Shown piece after piece: positions 20,877 through 39,916 of a stretch of DNA of 64,000 nt (its first letter is position 1; each line of letters starts with the position of its first letter). The stretch comes from a phage. The notes under the pieces were generated by a model. That model did not search any database. It was not told where the DNA came from and was given only the letters and a program-made list of their open reading frames with translations. A program made the translations under genes and the position numbers. The stretch lies in sequence record PZ179883.1; one strand, written 5' to 3'.

Positions 20877-21845
20877 TTATTTCAGAAGAGTAACCTCAGC
20901 GATTTCTTGCCAACCGTTTTTGTCGGTCATAATAAAGTCAGCAAGATAAAGAGCAGTACGCAGTGAAACATTGCGTAAACGATTAACATTGACTTTCATC
21001 CATGATAATGCTTTATAAGTTTCTTCATCAGAAAGACCGCGCTTTTGCATCATGTCAGTTGAAAGAATAACATCTTCAACCCTGACCATAATTTCTTCAT
21101 TAGTGTGAACACCCAAATCCAAATAAACTGAGCGGGACACCAATGCTTGTAAGTGTGGGGCAAGTTTAGTACCACGGTCTAATTCGCGGTCAATGTCAAC
21201 GTTTGTGATAAAAACAATCGTTCCTTTAAATTCAAACTCACGGTCAATGCCTTTTTCTTCTAAGTAAGAAGATGCAGTGCTCCAGCAGACTTTACGGGTC
21301 TCTCCAGTGTCCAGAGCAGCTTTTAGAAGATTAAGAATGTCCATATCAGAGAAAACATCCACATCATCAATCAAAAGGACGGAATTCTCTTCACGATTAT
21401 TCCAAAGCTGTTCATAAAGACCAATACCAGAGATTTTACCATTAATGCTTTTATATTCAATGTATCCATTATCATTTGCTTTATTTAAAGCTTTATCTAA
21501 AGAATACGTTTTACCAATACCTGCTGCGCCAGAGATAATTAATGAACGAATATTTCCATTAATAATACCGTTCGTCATCATTCCCATAACATTAAATCTT
21601 TTATTAATGCGGGTTTTCATATCTTCATATGATTCTTTAACTTCTTCAACTTTTACACCATCATATGAAATATCTGATTTGTAAACCCAAACACCGCGAC
21701 GTTTACCGTCAATTTCAACAAAAACTTTACCATCTCCTTGTGCATCTACCGGAGCATTATCTGGGAACCATTCACCTAAGAGCTCAAAAGTTCCAGAGAT
21801 TTCTTTACCGAAGTAGATACCCTTATTGATAGTTACAGTTTTCAT
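20877..21845 (-). CDS. AAA+/P-loop ATPase-like protein
   Basis: From ATG 21843-21845 (track start is GTG): Walker A GAAGIGKT, Walker B VLLIDDVD, sensor FITN; GGAGAA RBS. Confidence 0.6.
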   Translation of the reverse strand: MKTVTINKGIYFGKEISGTFELLGEWFPDNAPVDAQGDGKVFVEIDGKRRGVWVYKSDISYDGVKVEEVKESYEDMKTRINKRFNVMGMMTNGIINGNIRSLIISGAAGIGKTYSLDKALNKANDNGYIEYKSINGKISGIGLYEQLWNNREENSVLLIDDVDVFSDMDILNLLKAALDTGETRKVCWSTASSYLEEKGIDREFEFKGTIVFITNVDIDRELDRGTKLAPHLQALVSRSVYLDLGVHTNEEIMVRVEDVILSTDMMQKRGLSDEETYKALSWMKVNVNRLRNVSLRTALYLADFIMTDKNGWQEIAEVTLLK

Positions 21846-21881
21846 TTTATTCTCCAATTTCACATTTGTTTTGATAGGGTA

Positions 21882-21914: not shown

Positions 21915-22178
21915 TTATTTTAATGTTTGCCAAATTTTTACTGCTTCGCGACGAGATACTTCTACAGCTCCAAGTTCTACAGCTTTTTGGCGTCGCCGAG
22001 CGTGTAAGTCATAATGTTTAATGCGTTTATCTTGAAACCAAGAACGTTTCATTCCTATTGCTTCTGCCATTTCGTGAAGCTCTTCAATATCTCCATCAGT
22101 GAACATATGACAATTTTTAGTTGGATGACCGCGAAGTTTCCATCCATGATTCATTAAAACATCTACGTAAACTGTCAT
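21915..22178 (-). CDS. hypothetical protein (87 aa)
   Basis: Track ORF. Confidence 0.45.
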   Translation of the reverse strand: MTVYVDVLMNHGWKLRGHPTKNCHMFTDGDIEELHEMAEAIGMKRSWFQDKRIKHYDLHARRRQKAVELGAVEVSRREAVKIWQTLK

Positions 22179-22324
22179 TGATTCTTCTCCAAATAAGTTT
22201 CGATAATTTTCTGAGCGAGATAAACTGCATTATCTTCAGTTGCATCTTCTAAGAAACTTTCAAAACACTCTGAAATTTCTTCTGTGTCAATCAACTTTTT
22301 TACTTCAATTGGTGTAATTTTCAT
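22175..22324 (-). CDS. small acidic protein (49 aa)
   Basis: Track ORF 22175-22393 trimmed to ATG 22322-22324; the extension would read through the promoter at 22362-22391. Confidence 0.4.
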   Translation of the reverse strand: MKITPIEVKKLIDTEEISECFESFLEDATEDNAVYLAQKIIETYLEKNQ

Positions 22325-22361
22325 TTTGTTTTTCCGTTTAAGTGTTTGTTTTGATAGTTGT

Positions 22362-22391
22362 ATAGTACCATAAAGCTTTATGCTTGTAAAC
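22362..22391 (-). promoter_or_regulatory. early promoter (GTTTAC, 18 nt, TGGTACTAT)
   Basis: GTTTAC 22386-22391, TACTAT 22362-22367; AAAAATTTTTCACAAAATT upstream element; follows terminator 22416-22440. Confidence 0.6.
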
Positions 22392-22415
22392 AATTTTGTG
22401 AAAAATTTTTGAAAT

Positions 22416-22440
22416 AAAAAAGGGAGCCCGAAGGCTCCCT
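22416..22440 (-). terminator. intrinsic terminator after NTase-fold gene
   Basis: AGGGAGCC-UUCG-GGCUCCCU followed by UUUUUAUUU. Confidence 0.65.
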
Positions 22441-22441
22441 A

Positions 22442-23455
22442 TCATTTATAATAACTTCGGTGGTTTTCAAGATAAACCCTCTCAAGGAAGTCATCCCAAA
22501 AACCCATGTCTACTTTTTGCTGCATACCGTTCTTAGAAGCTTCAGTAGATGCTGCTTCTACTTGATCGACCACATCTTCCAAAAACTCTTGAACCGTTTT
22601 AAATGGATGTTTACCCAACTTCACGTCGAGAATAAATGGAGCATCTTGGAGTGGATAAACCAAGTCACCAGTTTTGTAAATTTCCAATAGTTGAAGTCCA
22701 CCACGACAAGCATGGCTCAGAGCTTTCCAGTCAATGCCTTCGTTGGCTTCGGCCTTACGAGCACGTTCACCGTATTCAGCATCTAATTTGTTCAGTGACT
22801 GCTTAAGCTCAATAAGAGAAAGAGTTGTCTGATATTTACGACCCAACACAGTGTAGAACGTTTGTGGGCCTGTTTTCTCATGATTATGGAACACCCATTC
22901 ACAGAATTCGTTTTCTGGAAGACGATGCTTAATATCTTCAACTTTAGTACGACGCTGCTTAATGGAACCGTCTTCTTGGTAATCAACCCATTGCTCAGGG
23001 ATTTGATTAACTACTTTCAATACATCACGTAATGCTGCCAAACGAGAACCCTTGACACCGTATTTAGAAGCTTGCTTACGGACATATCCTAAATATGATT
23101 TCATGTTAGTCGTATAAAAACGAGAACGGTTGTCTTGAATAAACTTCCACACATCAGGCAAATCAGATTTAACCACTAACTCAGGTGGAGTGTGAAGCAT
23201 ATCTAACGCTACAGTTTCACCATCTGCTGCTAATTTAAAGAAATATTTAAGACTATACAATTCGTGGTCAATATCATCTTTAGTGTTTTTAGATGATGTG
23301 TTGTTAGTGTTTTTACTCATATGCTCTTTAACATTTCCGATAAGAATATCACGAGCAGGAGGAACAAAGATTTCTTTAAAATCTACATCAGATTCTGGGG
23401 TAGAAGTTCCATAAAGATGACTACCAAAATAGCTTTTCATTACTGTTTTCATCAT
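22442..23455 (-). CDS. nucleotidyltransferase-fold protein (337 aa)
   Basis: N-terminal GS-x10-DVD motif (GSHLYGTSTPESDVDF) typical of Pol-beta-like NTases; followed by a terminator. Confidence 0.5.
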   Translation of the reverse strand: MMKTVMKSYFGSHLYGTSTPESDVDFKEIFVPPARDILIGNVKEHMSKNTNNTSSKNTKDDIDHELYSLKYFFKLAADGETVALDMLHTPPELVVKSDLPDVWKFIQDNRSRFYTTNMKSYLGYVRKQASKYGVKGSRLAALRDVLKVVNQIPEQWVDYQEDGSIKQRRTKVEDIKHRLPENEFCEWVFHNHEKTGPQTFYTVLGRKYQTTLSLIELKQSLNKLDAEYGERARKAEANEGIDWKALSHACRGGLQLLEIYKTGDLVYPLQDAPFILDVKLGKHPFKTVQEFLEDVVDQVEAASTEASKNGMQQKVDMGFWDDFLERVYLENHRSYYK

Positions 23456-23913
23456 TCAGCCTTATATTCAATAACAGGACATACTTTAGCTTTACGAGCT
23501 TTTAAAAATTCAACGATAATCGATTTCTTGGGTTGAATAGGAGGTAAACCTTTATACGCCCTATCAATATTTTCTACGTGTAAAGCATAATCCTTTTTCC
23601 ATTTATAATCTTTATATTTTTCACGCAGTTGTGCAGGAATAACAAATGAACCGATAATAAGTAAAACAAGCAAAATGGCAAGTATAAATGCTGATGGAAT
23701 AAGAGTCCATAAACTACCAAAAATAAGCCATTTCTGTATGATTTCTGCGCAGATGATAGTTAGACCTACGAGTATAGTACATCCGAAAAAAGAAACGAAA
23801 AATGTAGGGATAACAATAGACCAAAAGTATGCGCACAGCGTCTTAGGTCGTTGCCATTCATCGTTAAACAATTTGAATAATTTATAGTGCCAAGAGTTTT
23901 CATTAATAATCAT
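23452..23913 (-). CDS. multi-pass membrane protein (153 aa)
   Basis: Several hydrophobic segments; stop overlaps NTase start. Confidence 0.5.
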   Translation of the reverse strand: MIINENSWHYKLFKLFNDEWQRPKTLCAYFWSIVIPTFFVSFFGCTILVGLTIICAEIIQKWLIFGSLWTLIPSAFILAILLVLLIIGSFVIPAQLREKYKDYKWKKDYALHVENIDRAYKGLPPIQPKKSIIVEFLKARKAKVCPVIEYKAE

Positions 23914-23915
23914 AA

Positions 23916-24437
23916 TTATCCTTTCATTGAAGGTGTAACAGTTGTTAAATACTTAATCATAGCTTCAGCTTCTGATTTTGATAATGAAATTTCTTCATTG
24001 TTTTGACGAATAGAAATAAAATCCGGATGACGGTCACCACCGGCTTTTAAAACACACATATAAGTATCAGTTTCATCTTCAATATTTGAAATGATTGAAG
24101 CAGTTCCACACGAATGTGGTTTTTGATAAATCAATACAGCTTTTCTTCCACCATTTGACTGTTCATAAACTTTTAATACATCAAACAAATCACTTCTTTT
24201 ATCAATAGCTAAAATGTTGTTTTCATCTTCAATGTTAAATCCTTCGGATACTTCATAAAGTGTCACCCATAAATCACCTATATCGATAGTAGCATTTTCC
24301 TTTCCATGACTTTCAAGAGCATGACAAATTTTCTTGATTTCGTCATAACTCATTTTAATAATATCATCTCCTTGACTAAGAAAGATGTCATTTTTAAATT
24401 CAACACGAATTAAACCGCTTCCACTTGAAATAAACAT
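23916..24437 (-). CDS. hypothetical protein, tandem paralog A (173 aa)
   Basis: C-terminus EAEAMIKYLTTVTPSMKG resembles neighbour. Confidence 0.5.
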   Translation of the reverse strand: MFISSGSGLIRVEFKNDIFLSQGDDIIKMSYDEIKKICHALESHGKENATIDIGDLWVTLYEVSEGFNIEDENNILAIDKRSDLFDVLKVYEQSNGGRKAVLIYQKPHSCGTASIISNIEDETDTYMCVLKAGGDRHPDFISIRQNNEEISLSKSEAEAMIKYLTTVTPSMKG

Positions 24438-24443
24438 ATTTCC

Positions 24444-25001
24444 TCACTTTGAAATCATAGTTGGAATGACAGAATCAAGATAAGTCTTTAACGCAATAGC
24501 TTCGTCTTTGGTAAATGTGACAATATGTGATCGAAAATCGTCAATTTGGCGAATAGTTAAGACATCTCCCTCTTCATAACATTTTGATACATTTAAAAGA
24601 GTTTCATCATTCTGATTGCAAGCGTTAGTAATAATAGCATTGCAATTTTTGAGCCATTTTAAACTATGTTTTCTTTCATTAGAATAATAAAAATATTTAA
24701 TCTTATCTATAAAACTATCCCAATGGATAACTGATAAACACATTGACTCACTTTTAATATTAAATCCTGGGCATGAAGAATAAAAATGAATTTTGTGCTC
24801 ATCATTGATGCTTACTATTTTATCAGTATAAGGATATTCAATTTGGGTTAAATGAATGATTTCACTAGGCGTAAAATATAGCATATCGTCTTCTTGTGTC
24901 AAACGATACATATTATTTACTTTTTCTATAGCTAATTCACCAAAAAGCGGACTAACTTCTAATACTAATCGTTTCATATTGATTCTCTTCGACTCACCCA
25001 C
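24444..25001 (-). CDS. hypothetical protein, tandem paralog B (185 aa)
   Basis: C-terminus DEAIALKTYLDSVIPTMISK resembles neighbour. Confidence 0.5.
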   Translation of the reverse strand: MGESKRINMKRLVLEVSPLFGELAIEKVNNMYRLTQEDDMLYFTPSEIIHLTQIEYPYTDKIVSINDEHKIHFYSSCPGFNIKSESMCLSVIHWDSFIDKIKYFYYSNERKHSLKWLKNCNAIITNACNQNDETLLNVSKCYEEGDVLTIRQIDDFRSHIVTFTKDEAIALKTYLDSVIPTMISK

Positions 25002-38966: not shown

Positions 38967-39042
38967 TGGTCGAGGCAGTAGGGATCGAACCTACGACCTA
39001 GGACTTAGAAGGTCCTTGCTCTTCCTTCTGAGCTATGCCCCG
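38967..39042 (-). tRNA. tRNA-Arg (anticodon TCT), CCA encoded
   Basis: Manual fold: 7 bp acceptor, T-loop TTCGATC, anticodon loop CTTCTAA. Confidence 0.85.
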
Positions 39043-39046
39043 TAAT

Positions 39047-39128
39047 TGGGGTGACCGATGGGAGTCGAACCCATGACTACGAGAATCACAATCACAATCT
39101 CGAGTTCTACCAACTGAACTACGGCCAC
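39047..39128 (-). tRNA. tRNA-His-like (GTG) with 13-nt anticodon loop; possible pseudo-tRNA
   Basis: Acceptor, D-arm, T-arm and discriminator C resemble tRNA-His; anticodon stem CGAGA/TCTCG encloses TTGTGATTGTGAT. Confidence 0.55.
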
Positions 39129-39242
39129 ATTAATACCTACTCCAACAATCAAGATGTCTTCACACGAAATTAAGAGAAGAGTGATCAGTTCAACCCCTAT
39201 AATCGCGTCAAGTAGATATTAATGTGACAGTTGTCACAAATT

Positions 39243-39317
39243 TGGCGGACGTGATAGGATTCGAACCTATAACCAATCGCTTAACAGGCGATCGCTCTGC
39301 CATTGAGCTACACATCC
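39243..39317 (-). tRNA. tRNA-Asn (anticodon GTT), CCA encoded
   Basis: Manual fold: acceptor GGATGTG/CACGTCC, anticodon loop CTGTTAA, T-loop TTCGAAT. Confidence 0.85.
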
Positions 39318-39321
39318 AAAT

Positions 39322-39408
39322 TGGTGGGGAGTGGTGGAGTCGAACCACCCGAGTCGCAATGACAATGGATTTACAGTCCACACCGCTACCTCTACGGGAT
39401 AACTCCCC
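39322..39408 (-). tRNA. tRNA-Tyr (anticodon GTA), long variable arm, CCA encoded
   Basis: Manual fold: anticodon loop CTGTAAA, T-arm GGTGG-TTCGACT-CCACC. Confidence 0.8.
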
Positions 39409-39417
39409 AAATTAATT

Positions 39418-39492
39418 TGGTGGCCCTGGGTGGAATTGAACCACCATCTGGCGATTATGAGTCGCTTGCTTGAACCTTCCAGCTACAGGGCC
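39418..39492 (-). tRNA. tRNA with CAT anticodon (Ile2-type as in T4, or Met)
   Basis: Manual fold: acceptor GGCCCTG/CAGGGCC, anticodon loop CTCATAA. Confidence 0.75.
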
Positions 39493-39493
39493 T

Positions 39494-39569
39494 TGGTGCT
39501 GATTGACGGAATCGAACCGCCGACCTTCTCATTACAAGTGAGTTGCTCTACCTACTGAGCTAAATCAGC
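39494..39569 (-). tRNA. tRNA-Thr (anticodon TGT), CCA encoded
   Basis: Manual fold: acceptor GCTGATT/AATCAGC, anticodon loop CTTGTAA. Confidence 0.85.
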
Positions 39570-39574
39570 AAAAC

Positions 39575-39664
39575 TGGCGGAGGCGATAGGATTTGAACCT
39601 ATGAGTCGCCGGAGCGACTGCCGGTTTTCAAGACCGGTGCATTAAACCACTCTGCCACGCCTCC
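39575..39664 (-). tRNA. tRNA-Ser (anticodon TGA), long variable arm, CCA encoded
   Basis: Manual fold: anticodon arm CCGGT-CTTGAAA-ACCGG, T-loop TTCAAAT. Confidence 0.85.
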
Positions 39665-39666
39665 AG

Positions 39667-39740
39667 TCTCCGTGGCAGGATTTGAACCTACGACATTCTG
39701 CTCCCAAAGCAGACGCTCTACCAAACTGAGCTACACGGAG
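39667..39740 (-). tRNA. tRNA-Pro (anticodon TGG), CCA not encoded
   Basis: Manual fold: acceptor CTCCGTG/CACGGAG, anticodon loop TTTGGGA. Confidence 0.85.
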
Positions 39741-39750
39741 TAAATTAAAT

Positions 39751-39824
<74 letters not shown>

Positions 39825-39829
39825 AAATT

Positions 39830-39916
39830 TGGTGCGAGAAGTGGGACTCGAACCCACAAGGAAATCATTCCGCAGCATTTTAAGTGCTGTGCCTTTACCA
39901 ATTTGACCATTCTCGC
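39830..39916 (-). tRNA. tRNA-Leu (anticodon TAA), long variable arm, CCA encoded
   Basis: Manual fold: acceptor GCGAGAA/TTCTCGC, anticodon loop CTTAAAA. Confidence 0.85.

What the first reader, a model, noticed from the sequence alone, without database searches (positions are those of the whole stretch)
22416..23913. Nucleotidyltransferase-fold protein with a co-directional membrane protein, framed by a terminator and early promoter
The 337 aa protein starts with the GS-x10-DxD signature of Pol-beta-type nucleotidyltransferases (GSHLYGTSTPESDVDF) and its start overlaps the stop of a multi-pass membrane protein, suggesting a two-gene unit. NTase-fold enzymes recur in defence and counter-defence systems; the large C-terminal extension is uncharacterised.
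Basis: partly seen in the sequence, partly recalled or inferred. Interest (0 to 1): 0.6.

Follow-up and report, generated by a model that had tools for sequence, protein, structure and literature searches.

The report
Phage T4 NrdC.11 RNA nucleotidyltransferase ortholog
This is the T-even phage gene nrdC.11, an already catalogued but untested member of the RlaP family of enzymes that add one or two nucleotides to broken RNA ends, and the membrane-protein gene in front of it is a dispensable neighbour, not a fixed partner.

Summary
The window is a Tequatrovirus (T4-like) genome. The 337-aa ORF (minus strand, 22442-23455) is the ortholog of T4 NrdC.11 (99% aa identity). It passes Pfam PF10127 (RlaP, RNA-ligase-associated Pol-beta nucleotidyltransferase). 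G11-S12, D23, D25 and D63 are at least 97% conserved and align with the canonical RlaP catalytic residues. AlphaFold (pLDDT 94.6) gives an NTase core, a helical domain and a beta-rich insert. The NTase assignment dates from 2006, and a December 2025 preprint places T4 NrdC.11 in RlaP.

Full-length bacterial relatives (32-41% identity) sit inside RtcB, RtcA, Pnkp/Hen1 and Ro60 RNA-repair operons. The likeliest function is therefore addition of nucleotides to RNA 3'-OH ends during RNA (tRNA) repair, perhaps to counter nucleotide-excising anticodon nucleases. This is inferred, not shown.

The ATGA overlap with the 153-aa two-helix membrane ORF, the terminator and the early-type promoter are all real. 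The "two-gene unit" is not supported:
- T4 has the homing endonuclease mobD in that slot.
- Only 41 of 80 related phage loci have the membrane gene nearby, often 1-5 genes away.
- The membrane gene stays next to the y05I/mobD.1 gene in most loci that have it.

The closest solved fold is Hailong HalB, but the membrane protein resembles nothing solved, including HalA. Verdict: ordinary and already known.

The parts
22442..23455 (-). NrdC.11 ortholog: RlaP-family (PF10127) Pol-beta-type nucleotidyltransferase, 337 aa (336 aa if translation starts at M2)
   Evidence: ORF. 99.1% aa identity to T4 (H27). Pfam RlaP 2.4e-11, 44.3 bits. PHROG 388, 8e-137. AF2 pLDDT 94.6.
23051..23455 (-). Residues 1-135: NTase core with the G11-S12-H-L-Y-G motif, D23-x-D25 and third carboxylate D63, followed by the first helices
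   Evidence: Conservation. hhalign to the canonical RlaP profile over residues 6-133, probability 96%, aligning D23/D25/D63 with canonical D37/D39/D73.
22748..23041 (-). Residues about 139-236: subfamily-specific insert (helix 135-150, strands between 155 and 209, helix 214-236). Canonical 250-aa RlaPs lack it.
   Evidence: AF2 secondary structure. Length difference and hhalign gap against canonical RlaP. Low column conservation apart from the Y228-G229-x-R231 region.
22445..22747 (-). Residues 237-337: C-terminal helical domain with conserved D242-W-K244-A-x-S-H248-A-x-R251, P268 and K279-x-G281
   Evidence: Invariant or near-invariant columns. The motif K-x3-[H/Y]-x2-R-x10-T-G has the same spacing as canonical RlaP K148..Y152..R155..TG, but that alignment scores only 6% probability.
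22421..22440 (-). Intrinsic terminator ending the transcription unit that contains the NTase
   Evidence: Identical in T4.
22362..22390 (-). T4 early-type promoter for the next unit (small ORF, DUF4031, nrdC.10). It is not part of the NTase unit.
   Evidence: Identical in T4, where it directly precedes nrdC.10.
23452..23913 (-). 153-aa two-helix membrane protein (PHROG 944, no Pfam family). A neighbour of the NTase, not an obligate partner.
   Evidence: AF2 pLDDT 87.4, with the N- and C-terminal strands pairing. Invariant H9, C27, Y29 and C145.
23916..25001 (-). Two tandem y05I/mobD.1-like genes (173 and 185 aa), immediately upstream and tightly packed with the membrane gene
   Evidence: Pfam T4_y05I_N and T4_y05I_C. 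A y05I-like gene directly precedes the membrane gene in most loci that carry the membrane gene.

Best explanation
The 337-aa protein is the T-even phage protein NrdC.11. It belongs to a long-form subfamily of the RlaP (PF10127) Pol-beta nucleotidyltransferases.

Proposed mechanism (inferred). It uses D23, D25 and D63 with divalent metal, probably Mn2+, to add one or a few NMPs to the 3'-OH end of RNA, most plausibly broken tRNA. In the infected cell this would feed the phage's own healing-and-sealing enzymes: T4 Pnkp makes the 3'-OH and 5'-P ends, and Rnl1 ligates them. That would restore nucleotides that host anticodon nucleases have removed. The gene is accessory and dispensable in the laboratory.

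The membrane ORF upstream is co-transcribed and translationally coupled in this lineage. It belongs to a separate, variable y05I-linked cassette, and the NTase does not require it.

Shown here: identity with NrdC.11, family membership, catalytic residues, predicted fold, and the genomic contexts. Inferred: substrate, product and biological role.
For: Identity. 99.1% aa identity to T4 NrdC.11. Same locus between mobD.1 and nrdC.10.

Family.
- Pfam RlaP above the gathering threshold.
- The RlaP signature G-[SA]-H-L-Y-G ... S-D-x-D and the third Asp align with canonical RlaP at 96% probability.
- A preprint places T4 NrdC.11 in cluster 5 of the PF10127 similarity network. It shows that two Pseudomonas RlaPs add 1-2 NMP to RNA 3'-OH, prefer Mn2+, do not act on DNA or protein, and improve aminoacylation of repaired tRNA that lacks a nucleotide (doi 10.64898/2025.12.29.696909).

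Context of full-length relatives (32-41% identity over residues about 2-328).
- 13 of 80 bacterial loci carry RtcB, Pnkp ligase/Hen1 or Ro60 within 6 kb, several directly abutting the NTase.
- One Nitrosospira contig reads Ro60 - RtcB - RtcA - NrdC.11-like - canonical RlaP - Hen1.
- Among phage loci, RtcB lies within 5 kb in 2 and an HD-domain gene directly downstream in 3.
- An unrelated vibriophage has AAA_33 kinase - tRNA nucleotidyltransferase - hydrolase - NrdC.11-like next to tRNA genes.

Structure. AF2 pLDDT 94.6, with an NTase core and a helical domain. Conserved basic residues (K27, K56, K131, K135, R138, R231, K244, R251, K279) fit nucleic-acid binding.

Dispensability. The segment nrdC.11-mobD.3 is lost in viable genome-reduced T4 (PMC9825161).
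Against: - No biochemistry exists for NrdC.11 or any member of its subfamily. The preprint calls it 'of unknown function'.
- Homology to canonical RlaP is established statistically only for residues 6-133. The C-terminal correspondence rests on motif spacing and scores 6% probability.
- The roughly 100-residue insert could change substrate or product.
- Within this window no RNA ligase or Pnkp gene lies near the NTase. T4's pseT and rnlA map elsewhere in the genome (my knowledge of the T4 map).
- Most bacterial (67 of 80) and most phage loci show no RNA-repair neighbour.
- The best solved structural match is HalB, a DNA-synthesising NTase.
- No phenotype links nrdC.11 to any anticodon nuclease.
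Confidence: 0.6

Rival explanations
1. Hailong-like pair or Hailong decoy. The NTase synthesises oligodeoxynucleotides, as HalB does. These either gate the adjacent membrane protein (a phage-borne HalA/HalB-type module) or replenish the oligo-dA signal so that host Hailong stays off.
Against: - The membrane protein model matches no solved structure (best Foldseek E = 1.1), and HalA is not among the hits.
- PADLOC finds nothing.
- The membrane gene is absent from T4 and from 39 of 80 phage loci, is separated by 1-5 genes in most others, and is absent from all bacterial loci.
- Bacterial relatives sit in RNA-repair operons, not next to membrane effectors.
Confidence: 0.05
2. tRNA 3'-end (CCA) maintenance. 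The enzyme repairs or completes the 3' termini of phage or host tRNAs rather than anticodon-loop breaks.
For: RlaPs label full-length tRNA-sized RNAs and add 1-2 nucleotides to any RNA 3'-OH. The window encodes 10 tRNAs. In Vibrio phage 11895-B1 the homolog follows a gene annotated as tRNA nucleotidyltransferase. Three Aeromonas-type phage loci have a PolyA_pol-head (CCA-type) gene within 5 kb.
Against: - No match to the CCA-enzyme Pfam family PF01743.
- RlaP shows little NTP specificity, which suits CCA restoration poorly.
- Co-occurrence with a dedicated CCA enzyme argues for a different job.
- Classical genetics indicates that T4 tRNAs depend on the host CCA enzyme (my knowledge, not tested here).
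Confidence: 0.12
3. Non-RNA acceptor. The enzyme nucleotidylates a small molecule or a protein, as the aminoglycoside/lincosamide NTases or MNT antitoxins do. For example, it could inactivate a host toxin or metabolite.
Against: - These are fold-level matches only (TM 0.2-0.37, 7-18% identity).
- NCBIfam MntA scores 13 bits against a cut-off of 60.
- Characterised RlaPs did not label E. coli proteins or DNA.
- There is no adjacent HEPN toxin gene.
- Relatives lie in RNA-repair operons.
Confidence: 0.08
4. Obligate membrane-anchored two-gene module. The membrane protein recruits or regulates the NTase at the inner membrane.
For: ATGA translational coupling here and in about 12 of 80 loci. The two genes stay in the same neighbourhood and on the same strand in many enterobacterial and Acinetobacter T4-like phages.
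Against: - T4 and many other phages keep the NTase without the membrane gene.
- Intervening genes are common, and the membrane gene usually directly follows y05I rather than directly preceding the NTase.
- There is no enrichment of TM proteins immediately upstream (16 of 80 versus 16.8% background).
- Truncated membrane genes occur in T2 and other phages.
- T4-like genomes are broadly syntenic anyway.
Confidence: 0.07

Closest known systems
T4 NrdC.11 (UniProt-style name Y05K_BPT4; COG3541 / PF10127)
   Same: 99.1% identical protein. Same position upstream of nrdC.10, with an identical terminator and early promoter.
   Different: In T4 the upstream slot holds the HNH homing endonuclease mobD. 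Here it holds a second y05I paralog plus the membrane gene. This phage also has a small ORF and a DUF4031 gene between the promoter and nrdC.10.
Canonical bacterial RlaP (PfRlaP/PaRlaP; RtcB-operon NTases, about 250 aa)
   Same: Pfam family, the G-[SA]-HLYG and SDxD motifs, the third Asp, and an NTase-plus-helical-domain architecture. Relatives of both types occur in RtcB/Pnkp-Hen1/Ro operons (preprint).
   Different: About 24% identity, over the N-terminal roughly 125 residues only. NrdC.11-type proteins are about 80 residues longer and carry a beta-rich insert. They form a separate cluster (cluster 5 in the preprint). They can sit beside a canonical RlaP in one operon, which implies non-redundancy. 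Their activity is untested.
Hailong HalB (PDB 9dbh/9dbj)
   Different: No detectable sequence relationship. HalB is 217 aa and makes protein-primed oligo-dA. The partner here is a 153-aa two-helix protein that is unlike any solved structure and is dispensable.
Kanamycin nucleotidyltransferase / ANT(4') and the uncharacterised NTase 3c18
   Same: Two-domain layout of NTase plus helical bundle. Top Foldseek hits (E = 6-7e-3).

Membership tests
RlaP (Pfam PF10127) | Scores above the curated Pfam gathering threshold | tested here: met
   44.3 bits against a cut-off of 23, E = 2.4e-11, residues 7-135 on profile positions 23-142 of 249. All listed homologs are pre-annotated PF10127.
RlaP (Pfam PF10127) | Pol-beta catalytic set: G-[SA] loop, DxD and a third Asp | tested here: met
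   G11 and S12 are invariant. D23, D25 and D63 are at least 97% conserved and align with the canonical invariant D37, D39 and D73.
RlaP (Pfam PF10127) | C-terminal helical domain homologous to that of PfRlaP, with the terminal helix packing on the NTase domain | tested here: inconclusive
   AF2 predicts helices 214-336, and the K-x3-[H/Y]-x2-R-x10-TG motif has the same spacing. The profile alignment of this part scores only 6% probability. The PfRlaP structure did not appear among the PDB matches.
RlaP (Pfam PF10127) | Genomic association with RNA ligase / RNA repair genes | tested here: inconclusive
   Not met in this window: no ligase gene lies near the NTase. Met for full-length bacterial relatives, where 13 of 80 loci carry RtcB, Pnkp/Hen1 or Ro60. 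Met in a few phage loci.
RlaP (Pfam PF10127) | Adds 1-2 NMP to RNA 3'-OH; Mn2+-preferring | not testable with these tools
   Shown only for two Pseudomonas enzymes (preprint).
Hailong (HalA/HalB) | NTase homologous to HalB | tested here: inconclusive
Hailong (HalA/HalB) | HalA-type transmembrane channel partner in a conserved two-gene operon | tested here: not met
   The membrane model has no PDB match. The partner is missing or separated in most loci.
CD-NTase (CBASS) | cGAS/DncV-like NTase domain with an effector gene | tested here: not met
   No Pfam, NCBIfam or PADLOC match. No CD-NTase among the structural hits.
MNT / MntA and AbiEii antitoxin-type NTases | Family HMM match and a cognate HEPN/AbiEi partner | tested here: not met
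   MntA scores 13.2 bits against a cut-off of 60. There is no HEPN or AbiEi neighbour. An MNT-HEPN complex is only a weak Foldseek hit (E = 0.32).
CCA-adding enzymes / poly(A) polymerase (PF01743) | PolyA_pol head domain | tested here: not met
   No Pfam hit at E <= 0.01.

The most novel reading that the evidence does not exclude
NrdC.11-type proteins are a structurally distinct long form of RlaP. They carry a beta-rich insert and can coexist with a canonical RlaP in one repair operon. On this reading they have a non-redundant activity: putting back nucleotides that 'smart' anticodon nucleases such as RloC excise. T-even phages would use NrdC.11 together with Pnkp and Rnl1 as a third component of the classic T4 tRNA repair pathway. 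That would explain how these phages can answer nucleotide-excising tRNases.
Probability: 0.25. Interest if true: 0.6.

Novelty: already known. Interest (0 to 1): 0.3.

Why it matters
T4's Pnkp/Rnl1 repair of PrrC-cut tRNA is the founding example of RNA repair. Nucleases such as RloC that also remove a nucleotide were proposed to defeat it. If NrdC.11 fills that gap, the model phage would have an overlooked third repair enzyme, and the question becomes directly testable with existing T4 genetics.

As it stands, the finding re-identifies a catalogued gene. Its family assignment is nearly 20 years old, and its biochemical family was characterised in 2025. The practical value of this check is to redirect the hypothesis. 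The CD-NTase, MNT, AbiEii and CCA-enzyme candidates found no support, and a Hailong-like membrane pairing found very little. The gene's relatives point to RNA 3'-end repair. The membrane gene is better studied together with the y05I/mobD.1 genes.

Tried and rejected
1. Sequence search of the PDB with the protein and with a 114-sequence profile found nothing meaningful. The PfRlaP crystal structure did not appear among the matches.
2. The afdb50 fold library was not available.
4. Profile-profile alignment of the C-terminal half to canonical RlaP gives only a low-probability alternative alignment.
5. I looked for a general 'membrane protein immediately upstream' rule across 80 phage loci and found no enrichment.
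6. I asked whether NrdC.10 (the AAA-like NTPase downstream) matches the MoxR-type AAA gene in the bacterial repair operon. Only the Walker A motif is shared.
7. I asked whether the 'hydrolase' next to the vibriophage homolog equals the HD protein next to the metagenomic homologs. There is no similarity.
8. Searching viral contigs with the membrane-protein alignment failed because no stretch is conserved enough. 'Membrane gene without NTase' was therefore not tested directly.
9. There is no MotA-type middle promoter between 22 and 26 kb.
10. Rfam finds no RNA element in the region.
11. PADLOC and NCBIfam gave no usable hits for either protein.
Full report
**What is there.** The window is a T4-like (Tequatrovirus) genome. 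Bases 22300-24000 are 98.8% identical to phages such as vB_EcoM-fFiEco06, and 682 phage records match. Everything in the finding lies on the minus strand.
- The 337-aa ORF at 22442..23455 carries GSHLYGTSTPESDVDF at residues 11-26.
- Its ATG overlaps the TGA of a 153-aa ORF (23452..23913) as ATGA.
- One base after the NTase stop comes a strong intrinsic terminator (22440..22421; GGGAGCC-UUCG-GGCUCCC plus a U run; -17.7 kcal/mol, z = -3.8).
- It is followed by an early-type promoter, GTTTACA-17-TACTAT, at 22390..22362. Both signals are identical in T4.

The two signals, however, sit together on the 3' side of the NTase, and the promoter serves the next unit. Upstream, the membrane ORF lies 2 nt behind one y05I-like gene and that gene lies 6 nt behind another, so the packed block has at least four genes.

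**Identity.** The protein is the ortholog of T4 NrdC.11, with 99.1% aa identity (H27). It has the same neighbours, mobD.1 upstream and nrdC.10 downstream. It passes Pfam PF10127, 'RlaP, RNA repair pathway DNA polymerase beta family' (44.3 bits against a cut-off of 23), and PHROG 388 'nucleotidyltransferase' (8e-137). The NTase assignment for nrdC.11 was published in 2006 (COG3541; PMC1524935). RefSeq already annotates relatives as nucleotidyltransferase.

**The family.** An exhaustive search of 1.84 billion representative proteins finds 3,421 clusters at E <= 1e-3 and 827 at E <= 1e-30. The 150 best hits listed are mostly 300-360 aa and nearly all align over almost the whole query. The 'C-terminal extension' is therefore a conserved part of the family.
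- In 114-146 homologs at 35-58% identity, the invariant or near-invariant residues are G11, S12, D23, D25, N57, D61, D63, D85, Y124, Q128, K131, Y132, G136, R138, Y228, G229, R231, D242, W243, K244, H248, R251, P268, K279 and G281.
- Profile-profile comparison with a profile of canonical 250-aa RlaPs gives 96% probability (E = 2e-9) over residues 6-133. It aligns G11/S12, D23, D25 and D63 with the canonical invariant G25/A26, D37, D39 and D73.
- The C-terminal motif K244-x3-H248-x2-R251-x10-T-G has exactly the spacing of canonical K148-x3-Y152-x2-R155-x10-T-G. That alignment scores only 6% probability, so I treat it as suggestive.

**Structure.** AlphaFold2 with the 114-sequence alignment gives pLDDT 94.6 and pTM 0.85. 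The model has four parts:
- an alpha/beta NTase core up to about residue 115;
- helices 119-150;
- a beta-rich insert with strands between 155 and 209;
- a helical domain from 214 to 336.

All meaningful PDB matches are Pol-beta-fold NTases, and all are remote.
- Foldseek: kanamycin NTase 1kny (E = 6e-3), the uncharacterised NTase 3c18, Hailong HalB, ANT(4'), AadA, LinB, Tam41 and MNT.
- No PDB entry matches by sequence, even with the profile.

**What the family does.** A December 2025 preprint (Carruthers, Fatma and Huang, doi 10.64898/2025.12.29.696909) characterised two Pseudomonas RlaPs encoded between rtcB and rtcA.
- They add one or two NMPs (or dNMPs) to the 3'-OH of RNA. They do not act on DNA or protein.
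- They prefer Mn2+ and favour the 3' end at a tRNA anticodon-loop break.
- They improve aminoacylation of a repaired tRNA that had lost a nucleotide.
- The crystal structure shows an NTase domain plus a C-terminal helical domain.
- The authors place T4 NrdC.11 in cluster 5 of the PF10127 network, call it 'of unknown function', and propose that RlaPs are antidotes to 'smart' ribotoxins such as RloC that excise nucleotides.

**Independent context evidence.** A scan of one genome per prokaryotic species returned 80 loci encoding full-length NrdC.11-type proteins, 32-54% identical over residues about 2-328. Thirteen of them carry RNA-repair genes within 6 kb, several abutting the NTase. The repair genes are:
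- RtcB (PF01139, 2e-132);
- Pnkp ligase (PF16542, about 1e-175) with Hen1 (PF12623);
- Ro60/TROVE.

One Nitrosospira contig reads Ro60 - RtcB - RtcA - NrdC.11-like - canonical RlaP - Hen1 - MoxR-type AAA - DUF2201. The long form is thus embedded in repair operons and can sit beside a canonical RlaP, which suggests a non-redundant role.

Phage loci give weaker support.
- RtcB lies within 5 kb in 2 of 80 loci, and an HD-domain gene lies directly downstream in 3.
- The unrelated Vibrio phage 11895-B1 has the order AAA_33 kinase - tRNA nucleotidyltransferase (depositor's annotation) - hydrolase - NrdC.11-like, close to tRNA genes.

From this I infer that NrdC.11 adds nucleotides to RNA 3'-OH ends as part of RNA (tRNA) repair. 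T4's Pnkp produces 3'-OH ends and Rnl1 needs 3'-OH/5'-P ends (established T4 biochemistry), and the preprint notes that RlaP products suit 5'-phosphate ligases. A Pnkp, NrdC.11, Rnl1 sequence is therefore chemically coherent. None of this has been shown for NrdC.11. The insert could change specificity, and no repair gene lies near nrdC.11 in this window. The gene is dispensable in the laboratory: nrdC.11-mobD.3 is lost in viable genome-reduced T4 (PMC9825161).

**The membrane protein.** It belongs to PHROG 944, has no Pfam family, and was found in only 63 clusters; every one that carries a source name is from a T4-like phage or a phage-sized contig. AF2 (pLDDT 87.4) predicts a two-helix hairpin. 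The N- and C-terminal segments pair on one side, bringing the invariant H9, C27, Y29 and C145 together. The flanks are basic, so probably cytoplasmic, and a small metal site is possible. It matches no solved structure.

It is not an obligate partner of the NTase.
- T4 lacks it, and the HNH homing endonuclease mobD occupies the slot between nrdC.11 and mobD.1.
- Among 80 diverse phage loci with the NTase, 41 have a homolog within 5 kb on the same strand. About 12 are directly adjacent, and the rest are separated by 1-5 unrelated genes.
- In most loci that carry the membrane gene, it directly follows a y05I/mobD.1-like gene.
- The gene directly upstream of the NTase has a predicted TM helix in 16 of 80 loci, against a background of 16.8% of all ORFs.
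- Bacterial loci never have it.
- Truncated versions occur in T2 and other phages.

The conserved order is y05I - membrane - [0-5 genes] - nrdC.11 - [0-4 small genes] - nrdC.10. This looks like ordinary T4-like synteny with a hypervariable, homing-endonuclease-prone spot next to nrdC.11.

**Rivals.**
- A role at tRNA acceptor ends, a small-molecule or protein acceptor, and an obligate membrane-anchored module are each given about 7-12%.
- CD-NTase, MNT/AbiEii and CCA-enzyme membership were tested with profile libraries and not met.

**Verdict.** The NTase call is correct, but it re-identifies T4 nrdC.11, a gene already assigned to this fold and now to the RlaP family. The two-gene interpretation is not supported. 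The remaining open question is whether T-even phages use NrdC.11 with Pnkp and Rnl1 to reverse nucleotide-excising anticodon nucleases. That is worthwhile and testable, but it is already anticipated by the RlaP preprint. Interest 0.3; novelty: already known.

Noticed in passing
window 23452-25001 (minus strand): Two tandem y05I/mobD.1-like paralogs are followed by the membrane gene. Across T4-like genera the membrane gene usually directly follows a y05I-like gene, even when 1-5 genes separate it from nrdC.11. The membrane family has invariant H9, C27, Y29 and C145, which the AF2 model brings together. This could be a small cytoplasmic metal site and a y05I-linked function.
   Followed up: partly
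window 21915-22393 (minus strand): Relative to T4, this phage has an extra small ORF (49-72 aa, PHROG 6888) and a DUF4031 gene (87 aa) between the early promoter and nrdC.10. DUF4031 recurs at this spot in a few other T4-like loci (L025, L026, L034). The only paper found that mentions DUF4031 is a phage genome description, which I did not open.
   Followed up: partly
window 20877-21863 (minus strand): NrdC.10 is a 328-aa P-loop NTPase with weak AAA/STAND-like Pfam hits. It is the conserved downstream neighbour of nrdC.11 in many T4-like phages, but a terminator and promoter separate the two genes. It is not similar to the MoxR-type AAA gene in the bacterial repair operon.
   Followed up: partly
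L119 1558-12060 (Nitrosospira sp. contig CAADGK010000054.1): RNA-repair super-operon: Ro60 - 105-aa ORF - RtcB - RtcA - NrdC.11-like long RlaP - canonical RlaP - Hen1 - MoxR-type AAA - DUF2201/VWA metallopeptidase. Two different RlaP forms sit side by side.
   Followed up: yes
L166 5805-9921 (Vibrio phage 11895-B1, NC_020843.1): A non-T4-like vibriophage clusters an AAA_33 (polynucleotide-kinase-type) P-loop protein, a tRNA nucleotidyltransferase interrupted by an HNH endonuclease gene, a 154-aa 'hydrolase' with no Pfam match, and an NrdC.11-like RlaP. The cluster lies about 5 kb from tRNA genes.
   Followed up: partly
window 38970-39916 (minus strand): Cluster of 10 tRNA genes (Rfam). T4 itself has 8 (my recollection); the closest RefSeq relative is also annotated with 10.
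   Followed up: no
whole window: The MotA-box middle-promoter pattern TGCTTYA-N10-14-TANNNT occurs 19 times, against 3.8 expected from shuffles. Most occurrences are on the minus strand and none falls between 13 and 28 kb.
   Followed up: no
phage records T2, TadeuszReichstein, vB_EcoM_CE1, SV76: The membrane gene is present as truncated or frameshifted copies (83-135 aa, or two pieces) in several Tequatroviruses, which suggests ongoing decay.
   Followed up: no
L053-L055 4657-5004 (Aeromonas-type phage contigs): An unrelated 115-aa protein with one predicted TM helix overlaps the NTase start by ATGA in these distant phages. I read this as a coincidental parallel to the arrangement in the window, because TM proteins are not enriched upstream overall.
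   Followed up: partly
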